This document shows, one piece after another, positions 997 to 59,498 of a stretch of 64,000 bases of DNA. The notes under the pieces are model-generated. The model was given only the letters and a program-made list of their open reading frames with translations. It was not told the DNA's origin and did not search any database. Each line of letters begins with the position of its first letter. Position 1 is the stretch's first letter. Source of the stretch: Escherichia phage HansTraber_Bas100; the sequence record PQ850605.1. The stretch is one strand, 5' to 3'. The position numbers and the translations under genes are program-made.

Positions 997-1917
997 ATGA
1001 CGATACCAATCAACACATTCCCTCTATCTGGACAAACTCCAGTCTTGCCTGCGGTGTATGCTAATGGCTTGGCAATTGTCTCAGAATTCACTTCTGATAA
1101 AAACTTGATTGTTCCACTGAGCCCGCCGCTTGCATCAGGGTATAACTCAGTAGGTCAATTCTTTATGATTGGCAATGATGGCGATTCGACCAGCAAGCCT
1201 AATCTGACGTTGTCTGTGCCTAAGATGAACATCACAGACGTTCAAACTGGCTTGACTGCATCTACAATCACCATTGCTTTTGGAGAAGCAGTGATTATAG
1301 GGATGGAGTCTGGAGGGTCCAAGAATGCTGTCGCCGTTAAGGTAGTAAAATCCAGCGACAACCAATACACTTTACCAGCTGCGACGGCTTCCGTTCTCGG
1401 CGGCGTCAAAATAGGAAGCGGAATAAGCGTCGCAGGTGACGGTACAATTAGCGTCACTCAATACTCATTGCCGATTGCGTCAGCATCTACTTTAGGCGGC
1501 GTAAAGGTCGGTACAACTCTATCAATTGATGGTTCTGGTATGCTTAATGTAGCGCCAAGCACCGTCCAGAATGCTACTAATAGTGTCAGCAATCCTCCAA
1601 CTACTCTGGTCAATCTGGCGACCTTAAACCTTCCTGCAGGGAAATGGCTTGTAACAGCAAGTCAGTTGACTGTCGCGACAGCAGGAATTCAAGCGAATAC
1701 CGGAATTACAGTCAAATTGTCAACAAGCGATTCAGATATTACGGATGATGCATTTACAATGTCAGCTGGCATTCGGGCTGCAGGTCGTTTCGGCGGCAAT
1801 ATTCCAACAAAGATAATTACTCTTGCCGCGCCTGGCGATGTATGTCTAAACTATCAGTGCACCGATGCGTTGACATCTACCGTTTACGGACAGATCACCG
1901 CAATTAAGCTGAACTAA
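997..1917 (+). CDS. virion structural protein with internal LGGVK(I/V)G repeats
   Basis: Internal ATG at 997 with GAGG RBS; repeated TLPAATASVLGGVKIGSGISV / SLPIASASTLGGVKVGTTLSI segments; located in head module. Confidence 0.4.
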   Translation: MTIPINTFPLSGQTPVLPAVYANGLAIVSEFTSDKNLIVPLSPPLASGYNSVGQFFMIGNDGDSTSKPNLTLSVPKMNITDVQTGLTASTITIAFGEAVIIGMESGGSKNAVAVKVVKSSDNQYTLPAATASVLGGVKIGSGISVAGDGTISVTQYSLPIASASTLGGVKVGTTLSIDGSGMLNVAPSTVQNATNSVSNPPTTLVNLATLNLPAGKWLVTASQLTVATAGIQANTGITVKLSTSDSDITDDAFTMSAGIRAAGRFGGNIPTKIITLAAPGDVCLNYQCTDALTSTVYGQITAIKLN

Positions 1918-2065: not shown

Positions 2066-2107
2066 ATTCATCGGCAAAGGATTGCCGCGAGTTTTATACG
2101 TATAATG

Positions 2108-2373
2108 ACGTATCATACGTATCAAGTAAGTTATTGTTTTCAAAAGAATCTTACGGATGATACGGATGATACGCGTTGCCGCCGTACTATATAGGAATTC
2201 AAATAAATTAATTTAAAATTATATATCTAATTTAATTTTATTTTTTTTATAAACTCTTATATATGAAAAGTATCCGTATCATCCGTATCATCCGTAGCAC
2301 ACCAGTGATAGCGCGGCTTATACACCGATACGGATAAAAATACGCCTCATTTTATCCGTATCATCCGTATCAC
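2108..2373. repeat. iteron-like 9-bp repeat arrays (ATCCGTATC / GATACGGAT, both orientations) flanking an AT-rich core
   Basis: At least 10 copies or close variants at 2111-2128, 2152-2171, 2272-2296, 2327-2335, 2353-2373; AT-rich core 2191-2262 containing TATATAGGAATTCAAATAAATTAATT. Confidence 0.6.
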
Positions 2374-2481
2374 ACTAATAAAGGCGCGGCTATATCGGTT
2401 GTTATACATATTCAAACCATAATTATTGTTTGCCTAAGTTTTTTTCATTAGATATAATACACAATACTTATTTGAGGGTGG

Positions 2482-41786: not shown

Positions 41787-42869
41787 ATGGCTAGTTTAAG
41801 AGAAGAAGCAAAAATAATCGAAGAGTTTTTAACAGAACTCCAAAGAGGCATTCCAGAAGATGAGCGCGTCATGACGGTGTTTGCGCCTGAAGCAACGGTG
41901 CAGACTGACGAGCGCGGCAAGAAGATTAACAGCAGCTTCTGGCCTAAGCCTTGGAAGTTGGGCAAGCCGCTCATGCAGCACCAAAACGGCTATGCCTGCA
42001 TCAGTTCAATGCGTAAGTCTCCCAACCCGAAGACGGGTGAGATGCGATACTGGCGTACAGAGTCAGCCTTTGGTCACGGTATGGCGATGATGGTCGACGA
42101 CATCGGTCACGGTAAAGGGTCCAAAGGCGATTTAGATTTGGAATTCTTTTTCGAGCGACTGAAGCCGACTGTCATTGTCGAGACGTCACCGAACAACCAC
42201 CAGCTGTGGTACTTCTTTAAAGAACCAATTGACCATCTTATTCAGTTCAAAGCATTCCTTGGGTCTTTCGTAAACATGGTACTCAAGAAGGGCGGCGACA
42301 ACACGATTAAAGACGTAACGCGCGTGGGCCGTGTTCCTGGGTGCATCAACAACAAGCGCGTGACTCACGACGGCCCCTATAAATATGTCGATGAGAACGG
42401 CGACCCGTTCCGCTGCCGACTTGTCCATGCAGATTACTCCTTGCGCTACACCATCGAAGACATTTGTCAGGCATTCGGCTTTCACGTTGTAATGCCGCAA
42501 AAGCGTGAGATTCAAATTGACGTCGATGAATACAAATACGATGCTGTTTGGTATAAGATAGCCCAGCAGATTCTAGCGCGCAACAAGATGGGTGAAGGGT
42601 CTGATGGCGACGTTATCGAGAATATGTCAGGTAAGTGTCGCATAATCTGTCCTTGGGGTGAAGAGCACACCAACGGCGACCCGTATGGCGCTTACTTTCG
42701 CGGCCCTATTCCTGGTGCAGAACATGAATTTGTGTTCGGTTGCGCCCACGACTGTCACCGGAAAGGGGAAGGCAAGAAAGGTTGGACCGCTTTTGTTGAA
42801 GCAATCGTCATGCCTTATATTGAGAATCAACTTGACATGATAAATCGTCGTGCAGGTGGCATAAAATAG
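41787..42869 (+). CDS. putative DNA primase (primase-polymerase-like core with C-terminal Cys/His cluster)
   Basis: MMVDDIGH and VIVETSPNNHQLWYFF resemble prim-pol Asp and H-x-W motifs; C-terminal CPWGEEH...CAHDCH; followed by a D5/VirE-like helicase. Confidence 0.45.
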   Translation: MASLREEAKIIEEFLTELQRGIPEDERVMTVFAPEATVQTDERGKKINSSFWPKPWKLGKPLMQHQNGYACISSMRKSPNPKTGEMRYWRTESAFGHGMAMMVDDIGHGKGSKGDLDLEFFFERLKPTVIVETSPNNHQLWYFFKEPIDHLIQFKAFLGSFVNMVLKKGGDNTIKDVTRVGRVPGCINNKRVTHDGPYKYVDENGDPFRCRLVHADYSLRYTIEDICQAFGFHVVMPQKREIQIDVDEYKYDAVWYKIAQQILARNKMGEGSDGDVIENMSGKCRIICPWGEEHTNGDPYGAYFRGPIPGAEHEFVFGCAHDCHRKGEGKKGWTAFVEAIVMPYIENQLDMINRRAGGIK

Positions 42870-44179: not shown

Positions 44180-45850
44180 ATGTCAATTAATAACGACAAT
44201 CTTCCAGAGGATACAGGTGATGAATTTGGTGCAATCTTTGACGAAATTCAAGATGCAGGCGTTTCGGAAGAAATGCAGGCAGCAGAGCAGCAAGGCACCA
44301 GAGCTAAAATCAGCCTTCAACATAAAGCCGTTGAAAAAGATTCAGAGCGCATGGAATGCTACGGTGAAGAAGACTTGGTTGAAAGAGCACGCTTGCTCGC
44401 CTCACTTCAGGTAATCAAGTTCCCTCACTACAAGCCGACCAAAGATGACTTCGTTCTACAGGCAGACCGGACGAGTGACATGAACCGTTATGCGGTTTTC
44501 GACGCGTTGTTTGATAAGGGAAGTGGCGTTGTTCCATTCCCTCACAAAGATACCTTTCGTGGGCGCTTAGTCGACCATCGCGGCGAAACATTCACCGACC
44601 GTACTTTGGAAGTCACAGAGATAGTTGCCGCTGTCGACGCAGCAGGATTGTCCAACCCAAACTCACGTCAGGTCGCTCAATCCTATAAGGAATGGGCCAT
44701 GCGTTATCAGCGCGACGACCTGATGGACTTCTTCTACAAGAAGCTGCCTGAATGGGACGGTACTGCGCGCATCGAGAAATACCTTATCGAGCTATTCCGA
44801 CCGTTCGATACAGAGTTAAACCGACAAATCGGTGTGTATTTTTGGCTATCGCTCTACAACCGCCTGACCAACCCTGGCTGTCAAGCGCCAATCTCCATTG
44901 CGCTCATCGGCGGCCAGAACGCAGGGAAGAGTTATTTTAGCAAGCTGCTTTGCGAAGCTATTATGAACGACCGCCACGCAACACCGATTCCGTTGAACTT
45001 AGCCGCGCAGAACTTCAACCCGTTCTTGCGAGCTATTACGGGTCGCTCAATTATCGCGAACGTCGGCGAGATGACAGGCTTTAAAAAGGCCGACATCGAA
45101 AACATGAAAGCATTCCTGACTAAGACGGAAGATGACCTGGACTTCAAATTTGAAGATACGCAGGTTAAACCACGCCAGTGGATTGCTATCATGGACGGCA
45201 ACGAATACGCAGGCATGCAGCGTGATGACACGGGCAACCGTCGTGTGTATCCTATCTTTGTTGGCCAACTCGCTGACAAGGACGGGCAACCGAACTGGTC
45301 GAAAGACTTCCAAGCTGACCTTTCCACTTTGAAAGAAGATGTTTGGCAATTGATGGCTGAGTGCGCTGCTTGGATGGAGAAGCACGGCGAAGCAGGCTAC
45401 AACGCGTTTGTTGGTGAAACATCTCGCATGCTTACTGAGTTCAGTAAAAACGAAATGGAACGTGCGCGCGGCGTTATCCGTGATGAGATGGTTGACAATG
45501 ACCTTGTTGAAGTCGTCATCACCGCGCCTTATGACCGACATCACAGCGGACGCTGGCACATCACCAGTGGTGCTATTGCTATGGGATTCAGAGCGAAGTG
45601 TGGCAAGTCGCCTTTCTCTCGTACCCTTGCGCCGCACATGTCGAAGCTTGGTTTTGAGCCTGCAACCTATCGCAACCAGCGCGGTTACTTTACGCCGCTG
45701 ATTAAGAATGAAGCAGGGGAATACATTTCTGACTTGATGACCATCTTAGCGTATCTTATCCGTGATGAGTCTGACCCTGAAGATATTGAATTCTTGAAGA
45801 AGGTTATCGAGCGTAAACGTTCTTTGGGAAGAGATAAGGATGAATTCTGA
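44180..45850 (+). CDS. primase-associated helicase (D5 / VirE-like P-loop NTPase)
   Basis: 556 aa; Walker A IALIGGQNAGKSYF; downstream of the primase-like gene. Confidence 0.6.
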   Translation: MSINNDNLPEDTGDEFGAIFDEIQDAGVSEEMQAAEQQGTRAKISLQHKAVEKDSERMECYGEEDLVERARLLASLQVIKFPHYKPTKDDFVLQADRTSDMNRYAVFDALFDKGSGVVPFPHKDTFRGRLVDHRGETFTDRTLEVTEIVAAVDAAGLSNPNSRQVAQSYKEWAMRYQRDDLMDFFYKKLPEWDGTARIEKYLIELFRPFDTELNRQIGVYFWLSLYNRLTNPGCQAPISIALIGGQNAGKSYFSKLLCEAIMNDRHATPIPLNLAAQNFNPFLRAITGRSIIANVGEMTGFKKADIENMKAFLTKTEDDLDFKFEDTQVKPRQWIAIMDGNEYAGMQRDDTGNRRVYPIFVGQLADKDGQPNWSKDFQADLSTLKEDVWQLMAECAAWMEKHGEAGYNAFVGETSRMLTEFSKNEMERARGVIRDEMVDNDLVEVVITAPYDRHHSGRWHITSGAIAMGFRAKCGKSPFSRTLAPHMSKLGFEPATYRNQRGYFTPLIKNEAGEYISDLMTILAYLIRDESDPEDIEFLKKVIERKRSLGRDKDEF

Positions 45851-49201: not shown

Positions 49202-49224
49202 ATATCAAAAGGTGAGCTAAATGC

Positions 49225-49253
49225 TTGCCTTTTCTTTTATCAATACTTATACT
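49225..49253 (+). promoter_or_regulatory. sigma70-like promoter (TTGCCT-17-TATACT) within a repeated intergenic element
   Basis: Hexamers with 17-nt spacer; element repeated at 50478..50505. Confidence 0.4.
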
Positions 49254-50455: not shown

Positions 50456-50477
50456 TTCAAAAAGGTGAGCTAAGTGC

Positions 50478-50505
50478 TTGCCTTTTTATTTGCCTGTATT
50501 ATACT
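50478..50505 (+). promoter_or_regulatory. sigma70-like promoter (TTGCCT-16-TATACT), second copy of the repeated intergenic element
   Basis: Near-identical context to 49199..49260 (AAAAGGTGAGCTAA(A/G)TGCTTGCCTTTT...TATACT). Confidence 0.4.
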
Positions 50506-54068: not shown

Positions 54069-54330
54069 ATAAACACTGTTTACGTGTTTTGAAGAATGGA
54101 ATGTGTGCAATTGGTCGCTTTATGCGGCCTTTTGTCGTTTGGGTCGTGTTTTGCGATGGAATGATTATGAGGTTGTGTTTTATTTATTGATTGTGCGGAA
54201 ATATTTAGAAATATATATAAACAGGATTGTTAATATTTTAATAGTGTATGGCTATTGGTCCGTGGTGTTTGTTAGATTATATCTATGGATTGAAATTTTA
54301 GTGTCGTGAAACGTGGTTTTGAACACATTT

Positions 54331-54700
54331 GATACGCCTAAAATACGGTTAAAAATTAAGCGTATCATGGCTGCAGGCCGCGCCGTTGCTGGATTCCTAT
54401 TTTCAAAAGTGGTACACCCTTACGTCATGATACGTCATGGTTTTCTATCCGTAAGAGTGTACAGCCCTTGCCGCGCCTGGCTTGTACATTAATCTTACGG
54501 ATGATACGGATAAAACTGAGCATCGTTATATATAGAATTCGAAAAATTAATTAACTCCATTTTAAAAACATTTATATTAATTTTTTTCATATCCTCATAC
54601 TTATGTTAATTTATATATTTAACGTATCATCCGTAAGATATAAGTAAAAACAAAGACTTGCGGCAATACGGATGATACGTCATGATACGCTTCAACCAGC
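54331..54700. repeat. second iteron-like ATCCGTATC/GATACGGAT repeat region with similar AT-rich core
   Basis: Same architecture as 2108..2373; core TATATAGAATTCGAAAAATTAATTAAC closely resembles the first region. Confidence 0.6.
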
Positions 54701-54917
54701 CAGCAGCGGCTAAGTCATTGATTTGCATAACAAGCGGCGAAAGGGATGGATTTCTTTTATACGTATCAAACAGTACACCACGCACCACGGTCCGCTATTC
54801 ATTCAGCACTATGATTTATGTACTTTTACAGCCAATCTGAACATCAATCTGCACTTGAATATAATGTTCATTCATTGTATAATTCACACTATTAATTTGC
54901 ACTATGGGATTTGCACT

Positions 54918-55391
54918 ATGAGTCAAGATTATGTAGCAATGCCTGAAGACTTTGAAGACCCGCGATTTGCAGAGCATAATCAGGCATTATTCGATGAGTT
55001 CATTGACCTTGTTATTCAGGGCCATGACATGCGCGCAGCTTTTGCACTAGTATTTGGCATGGAGGTTGCGACCGATAACTACACTGGCCAGCGAATCCTC
55101 TGCACGCAACGCAATCCGTACTACAAGATGCGCTACAAAAAGCGTATGGAAGAGATGCCATTGAAGGAATTGTGGAGCGTAAAGAGTTCCATCCACAATT
55201 TAGTGAAGCTTGTGCGTGATCCAGAAGTCGCGGCGTCAGCCAAGCTTAATGCCATTCGTGAACTGAATATCATCTACGGCATCACGATGATTGATGAAAA
55301 TGGCAATAGTAAAATGGGCCGTTCCATGGACGATTTCTACAAGGATTTTGGAGAGGCAGCCAAAGAGGGTGAGCAATTCTCCCGCCACTAG
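54918..55391 (+). CDS. hypothetical protein (158 aa); start codon embedded in the ATTTGCACTATG motif
   Basis: Internal ATG at 54918 preceded by two motif copies; phage-like base composition; function unknown. Confidence 0.4.
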   Translation: MSQDYVAMPEDFEDPRFAEHNQALFDEFIDLVIQGHDMRAAFALVFGMEVATDNYTGQRILCTQRNPYYKMRYKKRMEEMPLKELWSVKSSIHNLVKLVRDPEVAASAKLNAIRELNIIYGITMIDENGNSKMGRSMDDFYKDFGEAAKEGEQFSRH

Positions 55392-55408
55392 CCAATTTGC
55401 ACTATAAA

Positions 55409-55446
55409 ATGGCCCTAGAACACATTTTCTCCACTTCTAGGGCCAT
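55409..55446. other. perfect 12-bp-stem hairpin (ATGGCCCTAGAA / TTCTAGGGCCAT, 14-nt loop)
   Basis: Perfect inverted repeat 3 nt after the motif copy at 55394-55405 and 18 nt after the stop of 54918..55391; no T-run. Confidence 0.5.
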
Positions 55447-55505
55447 CGGTAATACGACGGGGAAGGTTACAACCATAAACGCGTTAGAAAGTGTATTATT
55501 ATAAG

Positions 55506-55769
55506 TCATCTTTTAGTCACTTTACGTAACAATTTACGACCTTCCGCCGTCCAGTCGAACGACTCCACCAGCAGATTTGCACTATAACCTAAGACGATGC
55601 GTCCCTTCTCGTTATCGACCCGCCAACAAGTCTCGAATAGCATTCGATTTGCACTATTAACTATCGCCGCGACGCGCGTTGGGTAAGCGCAATTTGCACT
55701 ATGGTCATAAAGGGATAAGGTGCGACCGCTTCCGATGGACAACGTAGCGATAAGAATAAGCGTATTCAT
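55506..55769 (-). CDS. doubtful ORF reading through the motif array (motif encodes S-A-N three times)
   Basis: ORF track; hydrophobic N-terminus MNTLILIATLSIGSG; weak RBS; may be an artefact of the in-phase DNA repeats. Confidence 0.2.
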   Translation of the reverse strand: MNTLILIATLSIGSGRTLSLYDHSANCAYPTRVAAIVNSANRMLFETCWRVDNEKGRIVLGYSANLLVESFDWTAEGRKLLRKVTKR

Positions 55770-55819
55770 AAGCCACCAATTTGCACTATGAAAAGCGACC
55801 CCGAAGGGCCGCCATTCGA

Positions 55820-56446
55820 TTAGATAATCTGGAATGTGTAGGACTTGTTGCCGAACTCGAAGTTCAAGCGTCCAGCTTCCTTAAGCTTCATGCGGAAGCG
55901 AATGTGCTTGCTATCCGGTAATCCCAGCGCGGCGAACGCTACGCGGACCGATTTGAACTCGCCTACACCCTCGACCATGACACCGTTACGGGTGAGACGC
56001 TTTTGCGCCACTTCCTTATTATCCCAGCTTTTTGCAATACCTTCGCTATTCGAACGGCGATGGGAAGGAGTTCCATTTTGCACTACGCAATTTGCACTAT
56101 CGTTTAAACCGCTCTTAACGAAGGCTTCATACTCTTCGTCGGTCATCGCGTCGAGTTCTTCCTGGGTCGGCTCGGCCTTTTTAACGACCGCACGCGCCTT
56201 ATGCGTTTTTACATCGCTGGGCACTTCCTCGCGCGACTTCGCGTCTGGGATGGGCGACTCGTTGGACGGCTCATCGAGCGCGTTTAAGGACTCGATTAAC
56301 GCTATTACGCGAGTCTCGGCGGTCCGGCGGTCCGCAAATTTTTTGATCGGCTTCGAACCGGAATTTGCATTGTAAAATGCAACGAGGTCGGCGGTCTTAG
56401 TTGCGATAACGTCGCCGCTAGTCGAGAAACGATTTAAGCTAACCAT
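55820..56446 (-). CDS. hypothetical two-domain protein (208 aa) of the foreign cassette
   Basis: ATG with AGGAG RBS; structured N- and C-terminal regions separated by an acidic low-complexity linker; contains motif copies at 56075-56100; CpG-rich codon usage. Confidence 0.5.
   Translation of the reverse strand: MVSLNRFSTSGDVIATKTADLVAFYNANSGSKPIKKFADRRTAETRVIALIESLNALDEPSNESPIPDAKSREEVPSDVKTHKARAVVKKAEPTQEELDAMTDEEYEAFVKSGLNDSANCVVQNGTPSHRRSNSEGIAKSWDNKEVAQKRLTRNGVMVEGVGEFKSVRVAFAALGLPDSKHIRFRMKLKEAGRLNFEFGNKSYTFQII
56075..56100 (+). repeat. two adjacent motif copies (ATTTTGCACTAC, AATTTGCACTAT) inside the 208-aa gene
   Basis: Read directly; on the coding strand they translate as D-S-A-N-C-V-V-Q-N. 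Confidence 0.6.
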
Positions 56447-56526: not shown

Positions 56527-56811
56527 TTACGCTTCGACGAGGGAGAAGGTCTCAAATTCTTCTTCGCCCATAACGAGTAAGATGTTACCGATTTCGACCG
56601 CTTCGAAGAAGTATCCGTTAACGTTTACTTCGAAGGCTTCGCGGTCCGATTCCGGTAACGCCGCGTAAAGTTTAAAAGCCTCGGCGACCGTTACCCCACC
56701 CGCCTCGATAGTTTGGTCTACGTTCGCGGCGTAGACTTCGGATAAAATTTGTTTTACGCCGTAGTTCTCGACGATAGCGTTACGAATAGAAGAAACGTTA
56801 AGAATAGCCAT
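56527..56811 (-). CDS. small acidic protein, paralog family member 1 (94 aa)
   Basis: AGGAG RBS; shares SEVYAANVDQTIE and VNVNGYFFEAVEIG blocks with 57445..57735; net charge about -12. Confidence 0.5.
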   Translation of the reverse strand: MAILNVSSIRNAIVENYGVKQILSEVYAANVDQTIEAGGVTVAEAFKLYAALPESDREAFEVNVNGYFFEAVEIGNILLVMGEEEFETFSLVEA

Positions 56812-56834
56812 TTTAAACTCCTAGTTGGGAGAGG

Positions 56835-56860
56835 CGTTAACGACCTATTCGTTAACTCAT
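56835..56860 (-). promoter_or_regulatory. 5' leader element: mini-uORF (ATG-AGT-TAA) overlapping a hairpin GTTAACG-AATAGGT-CGTTAAC
   Basis: Conserved with the leader of 57445..57735; stem differs but stays complementary, loop AATAGGT identical. Confidence 0.45.
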
Positions 56861-56879
56861 CCCGTCCCGATATGAGTAC

Positions 56880-56907
56880 ATTATAATATAGTGTAGAAAA
56901 AAGTAAA
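56880..56907 (-). promoter_or_regulatory. cassette promoter P1 (TTTACT-17-TATAAT on the - strand)
   Basis: - strand reads GTGCTTTACTTTTTTCTACACTATATTATAATG, near-identical to P3. Confidence 0.45.
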
Positions 56908-56917
56908 GCACTTTTTC

Positions 56918-56944
56918 GATAAAAATGAGATAAATTATTTTATC
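56918..56944. promoter_or_regulatory. palindromic operator-like element between divergent promoters (GATAAAAA-11-TTTTTATC)
   Basis: 8-bp inverted repeat centred between the -35 elements of P1 and P2. Confidence 0.35.
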
Positions 56945-56951
56945 TTTTTTC

Positions 56952-56979
56952 TTTACTTCTTCGTACACTCGCGTATACT
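56952..56979 (+). promoter_or_regulatory. cassette promoter P2 (TTTACT-16-TATACT)
   Basis: CTTTACTTCTTCGTACACTCGCGTATACT shares the TTTACTTCTTCGTACACT block with P3. Confidence 0.4.
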
Positions 56980-57338: not shown

Positions 57339-57348
57339 CGAAAAGTGC

Positions 57349-57377
57349 TTTACTTCTTCGTACACTAAGACTATAAT
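57349..57377 (+). promoter_or_regulatory. cassette promoter P3 (TTTACT-17-TATAAT)
   Basis: GTGCTTTACTTCTTCGTACACTAAGACTATAATG upstream of 57445..57735. Confidence 0.45.
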
Positions 57378-57395
57378 GTTTTATATCGAGAGGGG

Positions 57396-57419
57396 ATGAG
57401 GTAGCGAATAGGTCGCTAC
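57396..57419 (+). promoter_or_regulatory. 5' leader element: mini-uORF (ATG-AGG-TAG) overlapping a hairpin GTAGCG-AATAGGT-CGCTAC
   Basis: Counterpart of the 56835..56860 element with compensatory stem changes. Confidence 0.45.
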
Positions 57420-57444
57420 CCGCCCGACCAACTAGGAGATTATT

Positions 57445-57735
57445 ATGATTACTTTAGCCGCTATCCGTTCCGCTCGCGTCGAGACTTCCGAAAACTCTAA
57501 CGTATTTGGCGAGACTTTAGAGAGCGTTTATCTCTCTAACGTCGACGCGACTATCGAGTCTATTTATGAGCCGATCAACTTCCTCGACCTTTACAAGTAT
57601 CGCGACGAGGACATCGTATCGTCCCGCGTAACGATCAACGGCTTCGTTTATACGATTACCGAAATCGGCGGCGAATATATCGCGGTCCCGCAACTCGGCG
57701 GCGAAGTAACTTATTTTAAAATCGTCTCCTTATAA
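57445..57735 (+). CDS. small acidic protein, paralog family member 3 (96 aa)
   Basis: AGGAG RBS; ESVYLSNVDATIES and VTINGFVYTITEIGG blocks shared with 56527..56811. Confidence 0.5.
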   Translation: MITLAAIRSARVETSENSNVFGETLESVYLSNVDATIESIYEPINFLDLYKYRDEDIVSSRVTINGFVYTITEIGGEYIAVPQLGGEVTYFKIVSL

Positions 57736-57973: not shown

Positions 57974-58202
57974 AAGGCGCAAAACTTTCCCTTCGTTCCG
58001 AACTAAAACGAGAAATATGCGGACCCTTCGCTCGAAAATAGTACGCATGCGAAATTACCGACATCTAGAATAATCCCCATCGATATTATCCTACGCGCAA
58101 CCATTCGCTTTCGAATTGTAACGCTGGAAACTGTAACGGCGATTGATTATTGCGTTCGTGTGGTTTTTAGGGCATGGGTCTTTTGGTGCGTTTTGCTACT
58201 TG

Positions 58203-59102: not shown

Positions 59103-59498
59103 TCAATATTTTAATAAGAAAGCACCCAACCAACTTTCCTCAATCTCGCGGCCAGTAGCCACACGGTCGGTCTTGGCTATGGGTCTGGATTCGCCGCAGG
59201 GCAATCCGTCCTGTAGTTGTGTACTATTGCCAATTCTCACCAGAATCTTTCCATCAGGGTCGATATAAGCGCGACAGCCCATGATTTCGAGCCGTTGTAG
59301 ACACTGGCGAATCGTTTTCAGCTTCTCACCGGACCGGATAGAGCGCGGTCGCGACCGCTGACCATTCTTATTCACTGTACGCTTGAAGACCGGAATATCA
59401 TTGGTGCGTTGCGGCTTCGGTCGGTAGTAGGCTTCTTCGCCAGGAGTCGCGCCTGGCGTCAGTTCGCGCTTAAGCGCCTTTTCAATATCAATGATCAT
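59103..59498 (-). CDS. hypothetical basic protein
   Basis: ORF track. Confidence 0.4.
   Translation of the reverse strand: MIIDIEKALKRELTPGATPGEEAYYRPKPQRTNDIPVFKRTVNKNGQRSRPRSIRSGEKLKTIRQCLQRLEIMGCRAYIDPDGKILVRIGNSTQLQDGLPCGESRPIAKTDRVATGREIEESWLGAFLLKY

What the first reader, a model, noticed from the sequence alone, without database searches (positions are those of the whole stretch)
54331..54700. Second copy of the ATCCGTATC repeat/AT-rich core architecture, preceding the motif array
The core TATATAGAATTCGAAAAATTAATTAAC closely matches TATATAGGAATTCAAATAAATTAATT at 2196-2221, flanked by the same 9-mer in both orientations, including palindromic ACGTCATGATACGTCATG variants. It sits between the early genes and the gene whose start is embedded in the cassette motif.
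Basis: seen in the sequence. Interest (0 to 1): 0.5.

Follow-up and report, generated by a model that had tools for sequence, protein, structure and literature searches.

The report
Origin-like repeat module holding genome end
This stretch of an E. coli phage (Wifcevirus) genome is one of two copies of a repeat-flanked, AT-rich DNA module built like a replication origin; this copy also contains the exact point where the packaged phage chromosome begins, and the paired layout is conserved across the whole PB1-like phage family but has not been described.

Summary
Window 54320-54780 (module B) and 2070-2400 (module A) are paralogous. Both have short iterons (consensus ATGATACGGATGA; 15 and 16 copies) in arrays that point inward at an AT-rich core, with GCCGC only to the left and GCGGC only to the right. 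The two cores are the most AT-rich stretches of the window.

The left physical end of the virion DNA (start of the ~3.7 kb direct terminal repeat) lies inside the B core at 54558|54559. Two independent records start there, and the orthologous point is the mapped packaging start of headful Pbunavirus JG024.

The module pair is conserved, with lineage-specific iterons shared by A and B, in Wifcevirus, two metagenomic lineages (in one of these only A was recovered), Myosmarvirus and Pbunavirus. BcepF1 has B (A not checked). The ancestral order is helicase, B, terS, and head gene, A, prohead protease.

The phage encodes a SaPI-Rep-type self-loading helicase with a C-terminal winged helix. SaPI origins have exactly this layout.

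Best reading (about 0.5): A and B are Rep-type origins, and B doubles as the packaging start. Main rival (about 0.3): both are small-terminase binding sites. Sequence alone cannot decide between them.

The parts
54113..54129 (+). Terminator-like hairpin that closes the upstream early-gene block. It marks the left limit of the non-coding gap that holds module B.
54331..54370 (.). Module B, far-left iterons: GATACGCCTAAAATACGG and GCGTATCATGG. This flank differs between Wifcevirus clades, but every variant carries iterons.
54377..54381 (+). GCCGC element. GCCGC occurs only to the left of the core.
54419..54455 (.). Module B, left outer iterons: CTTACGTCATGATACGTCATGG (two 10-nt units) and CTATCCGTAAG (inverted unit).
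54467..54481 (+). GC box CTTGCCGCGCCTGGC, which contains GCCGC. Related boxes (GGTGCGCCGCGACTGGG) sit at the same place in other Wifcevirus clades and in Serratia phage MyoSmar.
54491..54511 (+). Module B, left inner arm: AATCTTACGGATGATACGGAT. It holds two tandem 9-nt iterons pointing at the core and is identical to 2147-2167.
54512..54622 (.). Module B AT-rich core (83% A+T). It overlaps the most AT-rich 100-nt (54528-54627) and 150-nt (54510-54659) windows of the whole sequence. It contains the TATATAGAATTC box at 54529-54540.
54558..54559 (+). Left physical end of the virion DNA, which is the start of the direct terminal repeat and the packaging start: ...TTAATTAACTCC|ATTTTAAAAACA.
   Evidence: Position 1 of Mansfield (PhageTerm) and position 1 of WFC both map to 54559. 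The orthologous position is the terminus or pac start in MTx, MyoSmar, JG024 and Pa193.
54623..54637 (-). Module B, right inner arm: CGTATCATCCGTAAG. It holds two iterons pointing at the core and is the inverted repeat of 54494-54508.
54660..54738 (+). Three GCGGC elements at 54660, 54706 and 54734. GCGGC occurs only to the right of the core.
54666..54689 (+). Module B, right outer iterons: ATACGGATGATACGTCATGATACG (three units).
54759..54767 (.). Outlying palindromic iteron ATACGTATC.
54855..54883 (+). Sigma70-like promoter (TTGAAT, 17-nt spacer, TATAAT) for the small terminase gene. It lies outside the module.
54918..55391 (+). Small terminase (TerS) gene.
   Evidence: PDB 7UXE (E217 TerS), E 9e-33. 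Annotated as TerS in Mansfield.
2072..2087 (+). Terminator-like hairpin upstream of module A. It overlaps a GCCGC element at 2084.
2097..2123 (.). Module A, left outer iterons: TACGTATAATGACGTATCATACGTATC.
2147..2173 (+). Module A, left inner arm, with three tandem 9-nt iterons: TACGGATGA TACGGATGA TACG.
2174..2187 (+). GC box CGTTGCCGCCGTAC, with GCCGC at 2178.
2188..2271 (.). Module A AT-rich core (90% A+T). The stretch 2196-2255 is 95% A+T and is the most AT-rich 60 nt of the window. It starts with TATATAGGAATTC.
2272..2298 (-). Module A, right inner arm, with three tandem iterons. It forms a perfect 22-nt inverted repeat with 2152-2173.
2313..2390 (+). Two GCGGC elements at 2313 and 2386, found only to the right of the core.
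2327..2371 (.). Module A, right outer iterons: GATACGGATAAAAATACGCCTCATTTTATCCGTATCATCCGTATC.
2430..2458 (+). Sigma70-like promoter (TTGCCT, 17-nt spacer, TATAAT) for the prohead protease operon. The same arrangement is seen in MTx.
44180..45850 (+). VapE-like, SaPI-Rep-type self-loading helicase with a C-terminal winged helix. It is the candidate iteron-binding initiator.
   Evidence: Pfam PF05272. PDB 7PDS: E 4e-11 by sequence, 5e-23 by profile. AF2 model, pLDDT 86, winged-helix topology at residues 436-504. Foldseek match to 7PDS, E 1e-16, TMt 0.61.
41787..42869 (+). RepB-type DNA primase, the likely partner of the helicase.
   Evidence: Pfam PF16793, E 4.5e-36
58183..58184 (+). Probable right end of the direct terminal repeat: ...GGGTCTTT|TGGTGCG. 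There is no iteron module here.
   Evidence: The Mansfield boundary maps here. MyoSmar has the same motif and boundary. The WFC record runs 81 nt further.

Best explanation
Window 54113-54883 (module B) and 2072-2458 (module A) are two paralogous cis-acting nucleoprotein assembly sites built like origins of replication.

Proposed mechanism (inferred):
1. The phage's SaPI-Rep-type self-loading helicase (window 44180-45847) binds the 9-nt iterons through its C-terminal winged helix.
2. One complex assembles on each inward-pointing iteron array.
3. The complexes melt the 84-111 nt AT-rich core between the arrays. These cores are the two easiest-to-open stretches of the genome.
4. With the RepB-type primase (41787-42869) and the phage Pol III-type polymerase, bidirectional replication starts.
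5. The family-wide polarised GCCGC/GCGGC elements are a second protein-recognition layer whose binder is unknown.

Module B has a second job, and this part is shown by data. The terminase makes the packaging-initiation cut inside its core at 54558|54559. That point is the left end of the virion DNA and of the ~3.7 kb direct terminal repeat. Module A lacks the sequence at the cut point (AACTCC|ATTTT), so it is probably not cut.
For: Shown by data:
(1) Identity of the window. It is a Wifcevirus genome.
(2) Position of the genome end. Mansfield (PhageTerm) and WFC were deposited by different groups, and both start at window 54559, inside the B core. In Myosmarvirus MTx and MyoSmar the PhageTerm repeat boundary also falls in the core of the orthologous module. 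In headful Pbunavirus JG024, 36 of 161 long reads start at 59,376 +/- 5, and a pac restriction fragment matches this (PMC10913387). That position lies in the core of the orthologous module, and four other Pbunavirus records start at that same nucleotide.
(3) Architecture. The inner arms carry 3+3 (A) and 2+2 (B) iterons in opposite orientation around the core. GCCGC occurs only on the left and GCGGC only on the right of both cores. The cores rank first and second for A+T content at 60, 100 and 150 nt. Each module sits between a terminator-like hairpin and a downstream promoter.
(4) Conservation with co-variation. A and B share lineage-specific iterons in four lineages: TACGGATGA in Wifcevirus, TTGCGGATA in L066/L068, ACTTTTCG in Myosmarvirus and GGTAATTTGG in Pbunavirus. 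In L069 only A was recovered (AAGCGGATA). In BcepF1 only B was examined (TAGTTA). Module A is almost invariant across Wifceviruses and is more conserved than the neighbouring ORF. Three non-homologous left flanks of B all carry iterons.
(5) The initiator candidate. The 556-aa protein matches SaPI PriRep1 (PDB 7PDS) by sequence, profile and fold, and the model has a winged helix at residues 436-504. Its C-terminal domain is the most divergent part: 18-38% identity (15-33% for the winged-helix core), against 57-66% for the ATPase domain.

From the literature (PMC9371898): SaPI origins have 6-12 short iterons just downstream of rep, an AT-rich centre, and at least two iterons on each side in opposite orientation. 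Rep binds them through its C-terminal winged helix and melts the origin without ATP. In Pbunavirus, Myosmarvirus and BcepF1, module B lies immediately downstream of the helicase gene.

Inferred, not shown: that Rep binds these iterons, that either module fires as an origin, and that A is not cut.
Against: - No binding, melting or replication data exist for any member of the family.
- B is always immediately upstream of terS. In Wifcevirus and in the L070 lineage many small ORFs separate B from the helicase gene. B therefore stays with terS rather than with the helicase, which fits a terminase site equally well.
- A is never next to a replication gene. It lies between head genes.
- The iterons here are 9 nt with 9-10 nt spacing, longer than the SaPI penta- or hexanucleotides.
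- Divergence of the helicase C-terminal domain follows phylogeny, and the TerS N-terminus also diverges (22-53% identity). The co-variation therefore does not discriminate between the two proteins.
- Cumulative GC skew follows transcription direction and gives no origin signal. The Banzai paper places the skew minima in the replication-gene block.
Confidence: 0.5

Rival explanations
1. Both modules are small-terminase (TerS) recognition sites. The TerS ring binds the iterons and wraps the ~100 nt core. At B the large terminase then cuts, making B the pac site or repeat boundary. A is an uncut pac-like partner. It might be used to synapse two sites on a concatemer before packaging, as proposed for the gene 16 and gene 19 pac-like sequences of T4, or it might tie terminase to the head-gene region.
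For: - The cut is inside B in every lineage where ends are known.
- terS lies directly downstream of B in all six lineages, including those where the helicase gene has moved away.
- A lies directly upstream of the head-morphogenesis operon.
- The arm-to-arm distance (105-118 nt in the window) is about one turn around a TerS ring. This point rests on my own knowledge of TerS ring dimensions.
- TerS-binding repeats on both sides of the cut are known from SPP1 pacL/pacR (own knowledge).
Against: - A review reports that E217 TerS, the solved homologue of the window's TerS (E 9e-33), showed no appreciable DNA binding in vitro (PMC9611059).
- A recognition site that occurs twice in the genome is unusual for a pac or terminus site.
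- No reads or records are reported to start at A.
- Inverted iteron arrays around the most AT-rich DNA of the genome, next to a Rep-type helicase gene, match origin design rather than known pac sites.
- The right end of the terminal repeat, which terminase must also cut, has no iterons.
Confidence: 0.3
2. The iteron arrays are operator or enhancer sites for a phage transcription factor. This factor co-regulates the two downstream promoters (terS and the protease-scaffold-capsid operon), and the genome end falls in B only by coincidence.
For: - Both modules lie 60-170 nt upstream of near-consensus sigma70-like promoters of packaging and head genes. The same promoters are present in MTx.
- Pbunavirus 14-1 has a set of phage-specific promoters with a CTGGG core (PMC10914365). 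Pbunavirus module A contains TATATAGCCTGGG.
Against: - The modules are far larger and more elaborate than operators: about 30 sites, an 84-111 nt AT core and polarised GC elements.
- The iterons are too far upstream to repress the promoters.
- The precise cut inside the core in three genera is not explained.
- No promoter in the core itself scores above chance.
Confidence: 0.12
3. The similarity is a neutral remnant of a duplication or of gene conversion and has no function of its own.
For: In the L066/L068 lineage, A and B share about 35 nt of near-identical core sequence. This could reflect gene conversion.
Against: - The pair is kept in four lineages (Wifcevirus, L066/L068, Myosmarvirus, Pbunavirus) whose proteins are only 40-60% identical, while the iteron sequence itself has turned over.
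- Module A is nearly invariant within Wifcevirus.
- Iterons reappear in non-homologous flanks.
Confidence: 0.03

Closest known systems
SaPI (staphylococcal pathogenicity island) replication origin with its Rep or PriRep self-loading helicase
   Same: The layout matches: short iterons on both sides of an AT-rich centre, at least two per side in opposite orientation, lying just downstream of the rep gene. This holds for module B in Pbunavirus, Myosmarvirus and BcepF1. The initiator candidate is a homologous SF3-type helicase with a C-terminal winged helix (PDB 7PDS is the best sequence and fold match).
   Different: This is a ~68 kb virulent myophage, not a satellite island. There are two copies per genome, 15.6 kb apart on the virion DNA. 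The iterons are 9 nt rather than 5-6 nt. There is an extra polarised GCCGC/GCGGC layer. One copy contains the packaging cut. In the window the helicase gene is 8.7 kb away from B.
Phage P4 ori plus crr, bound by the alpha primase-helicase (from my own knowledge, not checked here)
   Same: A D5/VirE-class primase-helicase with a C-terminal DNA-binding domain recognises the same short iteron at two separated cis sites on one small replicon.
   Different: The P4 crr is a pair of 120-bp direct repeats rather than a symmetric AT-core module. P4 uses cos ends that are unrelated to ori.
Bacillus phage SPP1 oriL/oriR, and the SPP1 pac site (pacL-pacC-pacR) (from my own knowledge)
   Same: SPP1 has two discrete origins of the same design, each with initiator boxes next to an AT-rich region. 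Its pac site has TerS-binding repeats on both sides of the cut.
   Different: In SPP1 the origins and pac are separate loci bound by different proteins (G38P and G1P). Here a single module type carries both signatures.
T4 gene 16 / gene 19 pac-like sequences (terminase synapsis model) (from my own knowledge)
   Same: Two homologous sequences a few kb apart are proposed to be bound by the small terminase. E217-type TerS has been compared with T4 TerS.
   Different: The T4 sites are 24-nt sequences inside genes, with no iteron arrays or AT cores. T4 has no unique genome end.

Membership tests
SaPI/PICI-type Rep-iteron origin | The element encodes an SF3/VapE-class self-loading helicase with a C-terminal winged-helix domain. 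| tested here: met
   Pfam PF05272, E 1.6e-28. PDB 7PDS: E 4e-11 by sequence, 5e-23 by profile. AF2 model, pLDDT 86, with helix-strand-helix-helix-strand-strand topology at residues 436-504. Foldseek match to 7PDS: E 1e-16, about 480 aligned columns, TMt 0.61.
SaPI/PICI-type Rep-iteron origin | Short iterons lie on both sides of a central AT-rich region, at least two per side, pointing in opposite directions. | tested here: met
   A has 3+3 inner units around a 90% A+T core. B has 2+2 inner units around an 83% A+T core. Both have further outer units. The units are 9 nt, longer than in SaPIs.
SaPI/PICI-type Rep-iteron origin | The origin lies immediately downstream of the rep ORF. | tested here: inconclusive
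   Met for module B in Pbunavirus, Myosmarvirus and BcepF1. One ORF intervenes in L066. Not met in the window, where the gap is 8.7 kb, and never met for module A.
SaPI/PICI-type Rep-iteron origin | Rep binds the iterons and melts the AT-rich region, and the fragment supports Rep-dependent replication. | not testable with these tools
   Requires EMSA or footprinting, KMnO4 probing, and plasmid or marker-frequency assays.
Packaging initiation site (pac / left boundary of the direct terminal repeat) | A defined virion DNA end or packaging-series start maps to the site. | tested here: met
   Mansfield and WFC position 1 both map to window 54559. The MTx and MyoSmar PhageTerm boundaries fall in the orthologous core. 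The JG024 long-read start at 59,376 and four Pbunavirus record starts fall at the orthologous nucleotide. This rests on public records and a paper, not on reads analysed here.
Packaging initiation site (pac / left boundary of the direct terminal repeat) | The site lies next to or within the small terminase gene. | tested here: met
   terS starts 359 nt downstream of the cut. The same order is seen in all lineages examined.
Packaging initiation site (pac / left boundary of the direct terminal repeat) | The site is unique in the genome. | tested here: not met
   Module A is a full paralogue. However, A lacks the AACTCC|ATTTT sequence at the cut point.
Packaging initiation site (pac / left boundary of the direct terminal repeat) | TerS binds the site specifically. 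| not testable with these tools
   The only relevant report is negative, for the E217 homologue in vitro (PMC9611059). The DNA used in that experiment is not known to me.
Known structured RNA (Rfam) | A match to a curated covariance model. | tested here: not met
   No hit in B. A gives only sub-threshold plant miRNA hairpin matches (31 bits against a gathering score of 80), caused by its long AT-rich inverted repeat.

The most novel reading that the evidence does not exclude
Replication initiation and packaging initiation are physically fused in this phage family. The terminase cuts inside the duplex-unwinding element of a Rep-type origin, perhaps recognising the Rep-opened or Rep-bound structure rather than a TerS-DNA complex. 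That would explain why E217 TerS does not bind DNA on its own. The second, uncut origin copy (A) next to the head genes provides replication, or a synapsis partner, that is uncoupled from cutting. The same ancestral module would then underlie both headful (Pbunavirus) and fixed-end terminal-repeat (Wifcevirus, Myosmarvirus) packaging.
Probability: 0.2. Interest if true: 0.75.

Novelty: new variant of a known kind. Interest (0 to 1): 0.55.

Why it matters
PB1-like phages (Pbunavirus, and increasingly Wifcevirus) are among the phages most used and engineered for therapy. Their origins of replication are unknown, and their packaging signal is known only as a read-start coordinate.

This analysis gives two precise, family-wide candidate cis elements with testable binding proteins. 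It explains why several records open where they do. It predicts that genome rebooting or synthetic designs must keep both modules intact.

If origin and pac really are one module, that would be an unusual coupling of replication and packaging. It would also offer a route by which headful and fixed-end packaging interconvert.

Tried and rejected
- Cumulative GC skew follows gene orientation and gives no origin signal.
- Sigma70 promoter scans inside the cores give nothing above chance.
- The Rfam search gives no real hit.
- Single-strand folding gives long hairpins (z -6.4 and -5.2). This only restates the inverted repeat and does not discriminate between models.
- A 17-mer scan of IMG/VR for the MTx arm found only chance hits outside MTx.
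- The TerS search in IMG/VR returned only near-identical Wifceviruses.
- Comparing domain divergence of the helicase C-terminal domain and the TerS N-terminus, to decide which protein co-varies with the iterons, was uninformative. Both diverge with phylogeny. One sequence I labelled MyoSmar TerS in that call was the wrong ORF and was ignored.
- The E217 terminase paper (PMC10026623) is not held, and the supplementary TSS tables for phage 14-1 are not held. I could not check whether a transcript starts in the Pbunavirus cores or which DNA the E217 TerS was tested on.
- One contig look-up returned no DNA.
- A DnaA-box reading was considered and dropped. TTATCCGTA differs from TTATCCACA at two core positions, and the iteron changes completely between lineages that share hosts.
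- An IHF-site reading was checked by eye and no consensus match was found.

Full report
**What the window is.** The two regions named in the finding match 28 phage records at 90-99.5% identity, all from the genus Wifcevirus (E. coli and Shigella myophages such as WFC, Mansfield and ECML-117). These are distant relatives of the Pseudomonas PB1-like phages (Pbunavirus). Their genomes are about 68 kb plus a direct terminal repeat of about 3.7 kb.

- Every exact copy of ATCCGTATC lies in 2159-2371 or at 54503.
- 17 of the 36 copies of GATACG/CGTATC lie in the two regions, which are the only places with at least 4 copies per 400 nt.
- When the repeat is taken as a TACG-core unit, there are 16 units in 2097-2366 and 15 in 54333-54762, with consensus ATGATACGGATGA.
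- The regions align collinearly with a score of 70, against 22.3 +/- 3.1 for shuffles. They share a 21-nt exact word at 2147 and 54491.
- The AT core alone is only modestly similar. It scores 40, against 27.9 +/- 5.3 for shuffles of itself and 21.5 +/- 3.6 (maximum 33) for the 30 other most AT-rich segments.

**Anatomy.** Each module lies in a non-coding gap between a terminator-like hairpin (2072-2087; 54113-54129) and a near-consensus sigma70-like promoter (2430-2458; 54855-54883).
- Inner iteron arrays point at the core from both sides: 3+3 in module A (a perfect 22-nt inverted repeat) and 2+2 in module B.
- Further iterons lie outside the inner arrays on both sides.
- GCCGC occurs only to the left of both cores and GCGGC only to the right.
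- The cores (2188-2271, 90% A+T; 54512-54622, 83% A+T) rank first and second for A+T content in the window at 60, 100 and 150 nt.

Phage Mansfield was opened at a PhageTerm-predicted repeat boundary. Phage WFC was deposited by another group with both repeats included. Both start at the same nucleotide, window 54559, inside the B core...TTAATTAACTCC|ATTTTAAAAACA. The gene 359 nt downstream (54918-55391) is the small terminase. It matches the solved E217 TerS (PDB 7UXE) at E 9e-33. Module B is therefore the junction between the unique right end of the genome and the terminal repeat, and the packaging start lies in its core. The right end of the repeat (about 58183|58184) has no iterons.

**Relatives.** The same pair of modules is present in other lineages, with different iterons.
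- Serratia phage MTx (Myosmarvirus; its prohead protease is 53% identical): one copy lies upstream of the protease and one at the junction of unique DNA and terminal repeat. Both use ACTTTTCG-type repeats, and the PhageTerm boundary is again in the core. MyoSmar is the same.
- Pbunavirus vB_Pae436M-8 has both copies, with GGTAATTTGG/CCGGTAATT repeats and 22-nt arms that carry GCCGCG.
- Two metagenomic lineages use TTGCGGATA (both copies recovered) and AAGCGGATA (only the A copy recovered).
- Burkholderia phage BcepF1 uses TAGTTA. Only its B copy was examined.
- Within each genome where both copies were recovered, A and B share the iteron. Between lineages the iteron differs.
- The gene order is constant: VapE-like helicase, then B, then terS; and MuF-like head gene, then A, then prohead protease.
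- Pbunaviruses package by the headful mechanism and have circularly permuted genomes. The module pair is therefore not a by-product of terminal repeats.
- For JG024, 36 of 161 long reads start at 59,376 +/- 5, and a pac fragment was seen (PMC10913387). That nucleotide lies in the core of the Pbunavirus B module. Four other Pbunavirus records start exactly there.

**Selection.** Module A is almost invariant across Wifceviruses and is more conserved than the small ORF next to it. The left flank of B exists in three non-homologous versions, and all of them carry iterons and a GCCGCG box.

**Who binds?** The window encodes a 556-aa VapE-like protein (44180-45847) and a RepB-type primase (41787-42866).
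- The former matches SaPI PriRep1 (PDB 7PDS) by sequence (E 4e-11), by profile (E 5e-23) and by fold (Foldseek E 1e-16, about 480 aligned columns, TMt 0.61).
- The AF2 model (pLDDT 86) has a winged-helix topology at residues 436-504.
- The paper on these helicases states that SaPI origins lie just downstream of rep. They have 6-12 short iterons split by an AT-rich centre, with at least two on each side in opposite orientation. Rep recognises them through its C-terminal winged helix and melts the origin without ATP (PMC9371898).
- That is the design seen here. In Pbunavirus, Myosmarvirus and BcepF1, module B does lie directly after the helicase gene.
- The helicase C-terminal domain is its most divergent part: 18-38% identity, against 57-66% for the ATPase domain. 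This fits a specificity domain.
- The TerS N-terminus also diverges, so this comparison does not decide between the two proteins.

**Rival reading.** Both modules could be TerS sites, with B cut and A an uncut partner. In favour:
- the cut is in B;
- B stays next to terS even where small ORFs separate it from the helicase gene (window; L070);
- A sits next to head genes.

Against:
- a review reports that E217 TerS showed no appreciable DNA binding;
- the site is not unique;
- the right end of the repeat lacks iterons;
- the design is that of an origin.

A transcription-factor reading is weaker. The good promoters lie outside the modules, and the precise cut would be unexplained. A neutral-remnant reading is contradicted by the conservation pattern.

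**Verdict.** Shown: the duplication, its architecture, its family-wide conservation with iterons shared between the copies, and the genome end or pac start inside copy B. Inferred: both copies are Rep-type origins and B doubles as the packaging start (confidence about 0.5). The TerS-site model stands at about 0.3.

In the literature I could search, neither the module architecture nor copy A is described for this family. The position of the end itself is already annotated in Mansfield and reported for JG024.

Noticed in passing
window 58170-58195 (boundary 58183|58184): The right end of the direct terminal repeat seems sequence-defined. The Mansfield boundary ...GGGCATGGGTCTTT|TGGTGCGTTTTGC has a counterpart in Serratia phage MyoSmar, ...GGGCAAGGGC|TGGTGCGATTTCAC, cut at the same place. 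The MTx boundary lies 22 nt upstream of the same motif. The WFC record runs 81 nt further. TGGTGCG also occurs in the GC box to the left of module B in the FEC19-type Wifceviruses and in MyoSmar.
   Followed up: partly
window 54895-56100: ATTTGCACTAT occurs 8 times exactly, always on the + strand, only inside the terminal repeat and nowhere else in the window (expected 1.9 with one mismatch allowed). Two copies overlap the terS ribosome-binding and start region. A related AATTTGCAGTACACT occurs twice near the right end of the repeat (58208, 58303). This is the 'motif array' of the finding's title. Its function is unknown.
   Followed up: partly
window 1822-1836 and 54467-54481: The 15-mer CTTGCCGCGCCTGGC is shared between the GC box of module B and a site inside the ORF 928-1917, about 325 nt upstream of module A's left arm. 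It could be chance, or an outlying element of module A.
   Followed up: no
L011 (IMG/VR contig 3300045988_152943), locus position 1, equivalent to window 2149: A 68,520-nt metagenome-assembled Wifcevirus contig ends exactly at the left inner arm of module A. This is probably an assembly break at the 21-nt word shared by A and B.
   Followed up: no
L067 6299-6835 (Burkholderia phage BcepF1, EF153632.1): A clear TerS homologue (SNPYF...LW...LNVLAG.TFID..GNTR.GR.L.DFYA) is encoded on the + strand. The stored gene table lists only small ORFs there, on the opposite strand.
   Followed up: partly
window 56809-56873 / 57383-57447 and 56889-56915 / 57341-57367: Large nested inverted repeats (65 nt at 78% and 27 nt at 89% complementarity) inside the terminal repeat enclose about 425-510 nt. 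A very AT-rich stretch (56870-56969, 78% A+T) lies at the left arm.
   Followed up: no
window 49207-49238 and 50460-50491: A near-identical 32-nt element, AAAAGGTGAGCTAAATGCTTGCCTTTTCTTTT (91% identity), occurs twice in the early-gene block. It looks like a repeated terminator hairpin.
   Followed up: no
L051/L052 (MTx) and L058 (MyoSmar) module B cores: The PhageTerm repeat boundaries of the two Myosmarvirus records differ by about 16-17 nt within the same core (AAGGAAATACGAAAACGAAACCA|TAG in MTx, AAGAAATAC|GAAAAAG in MyoSmar). At least one of them is imprecise, or the cut is staggered.
   Followed up: no
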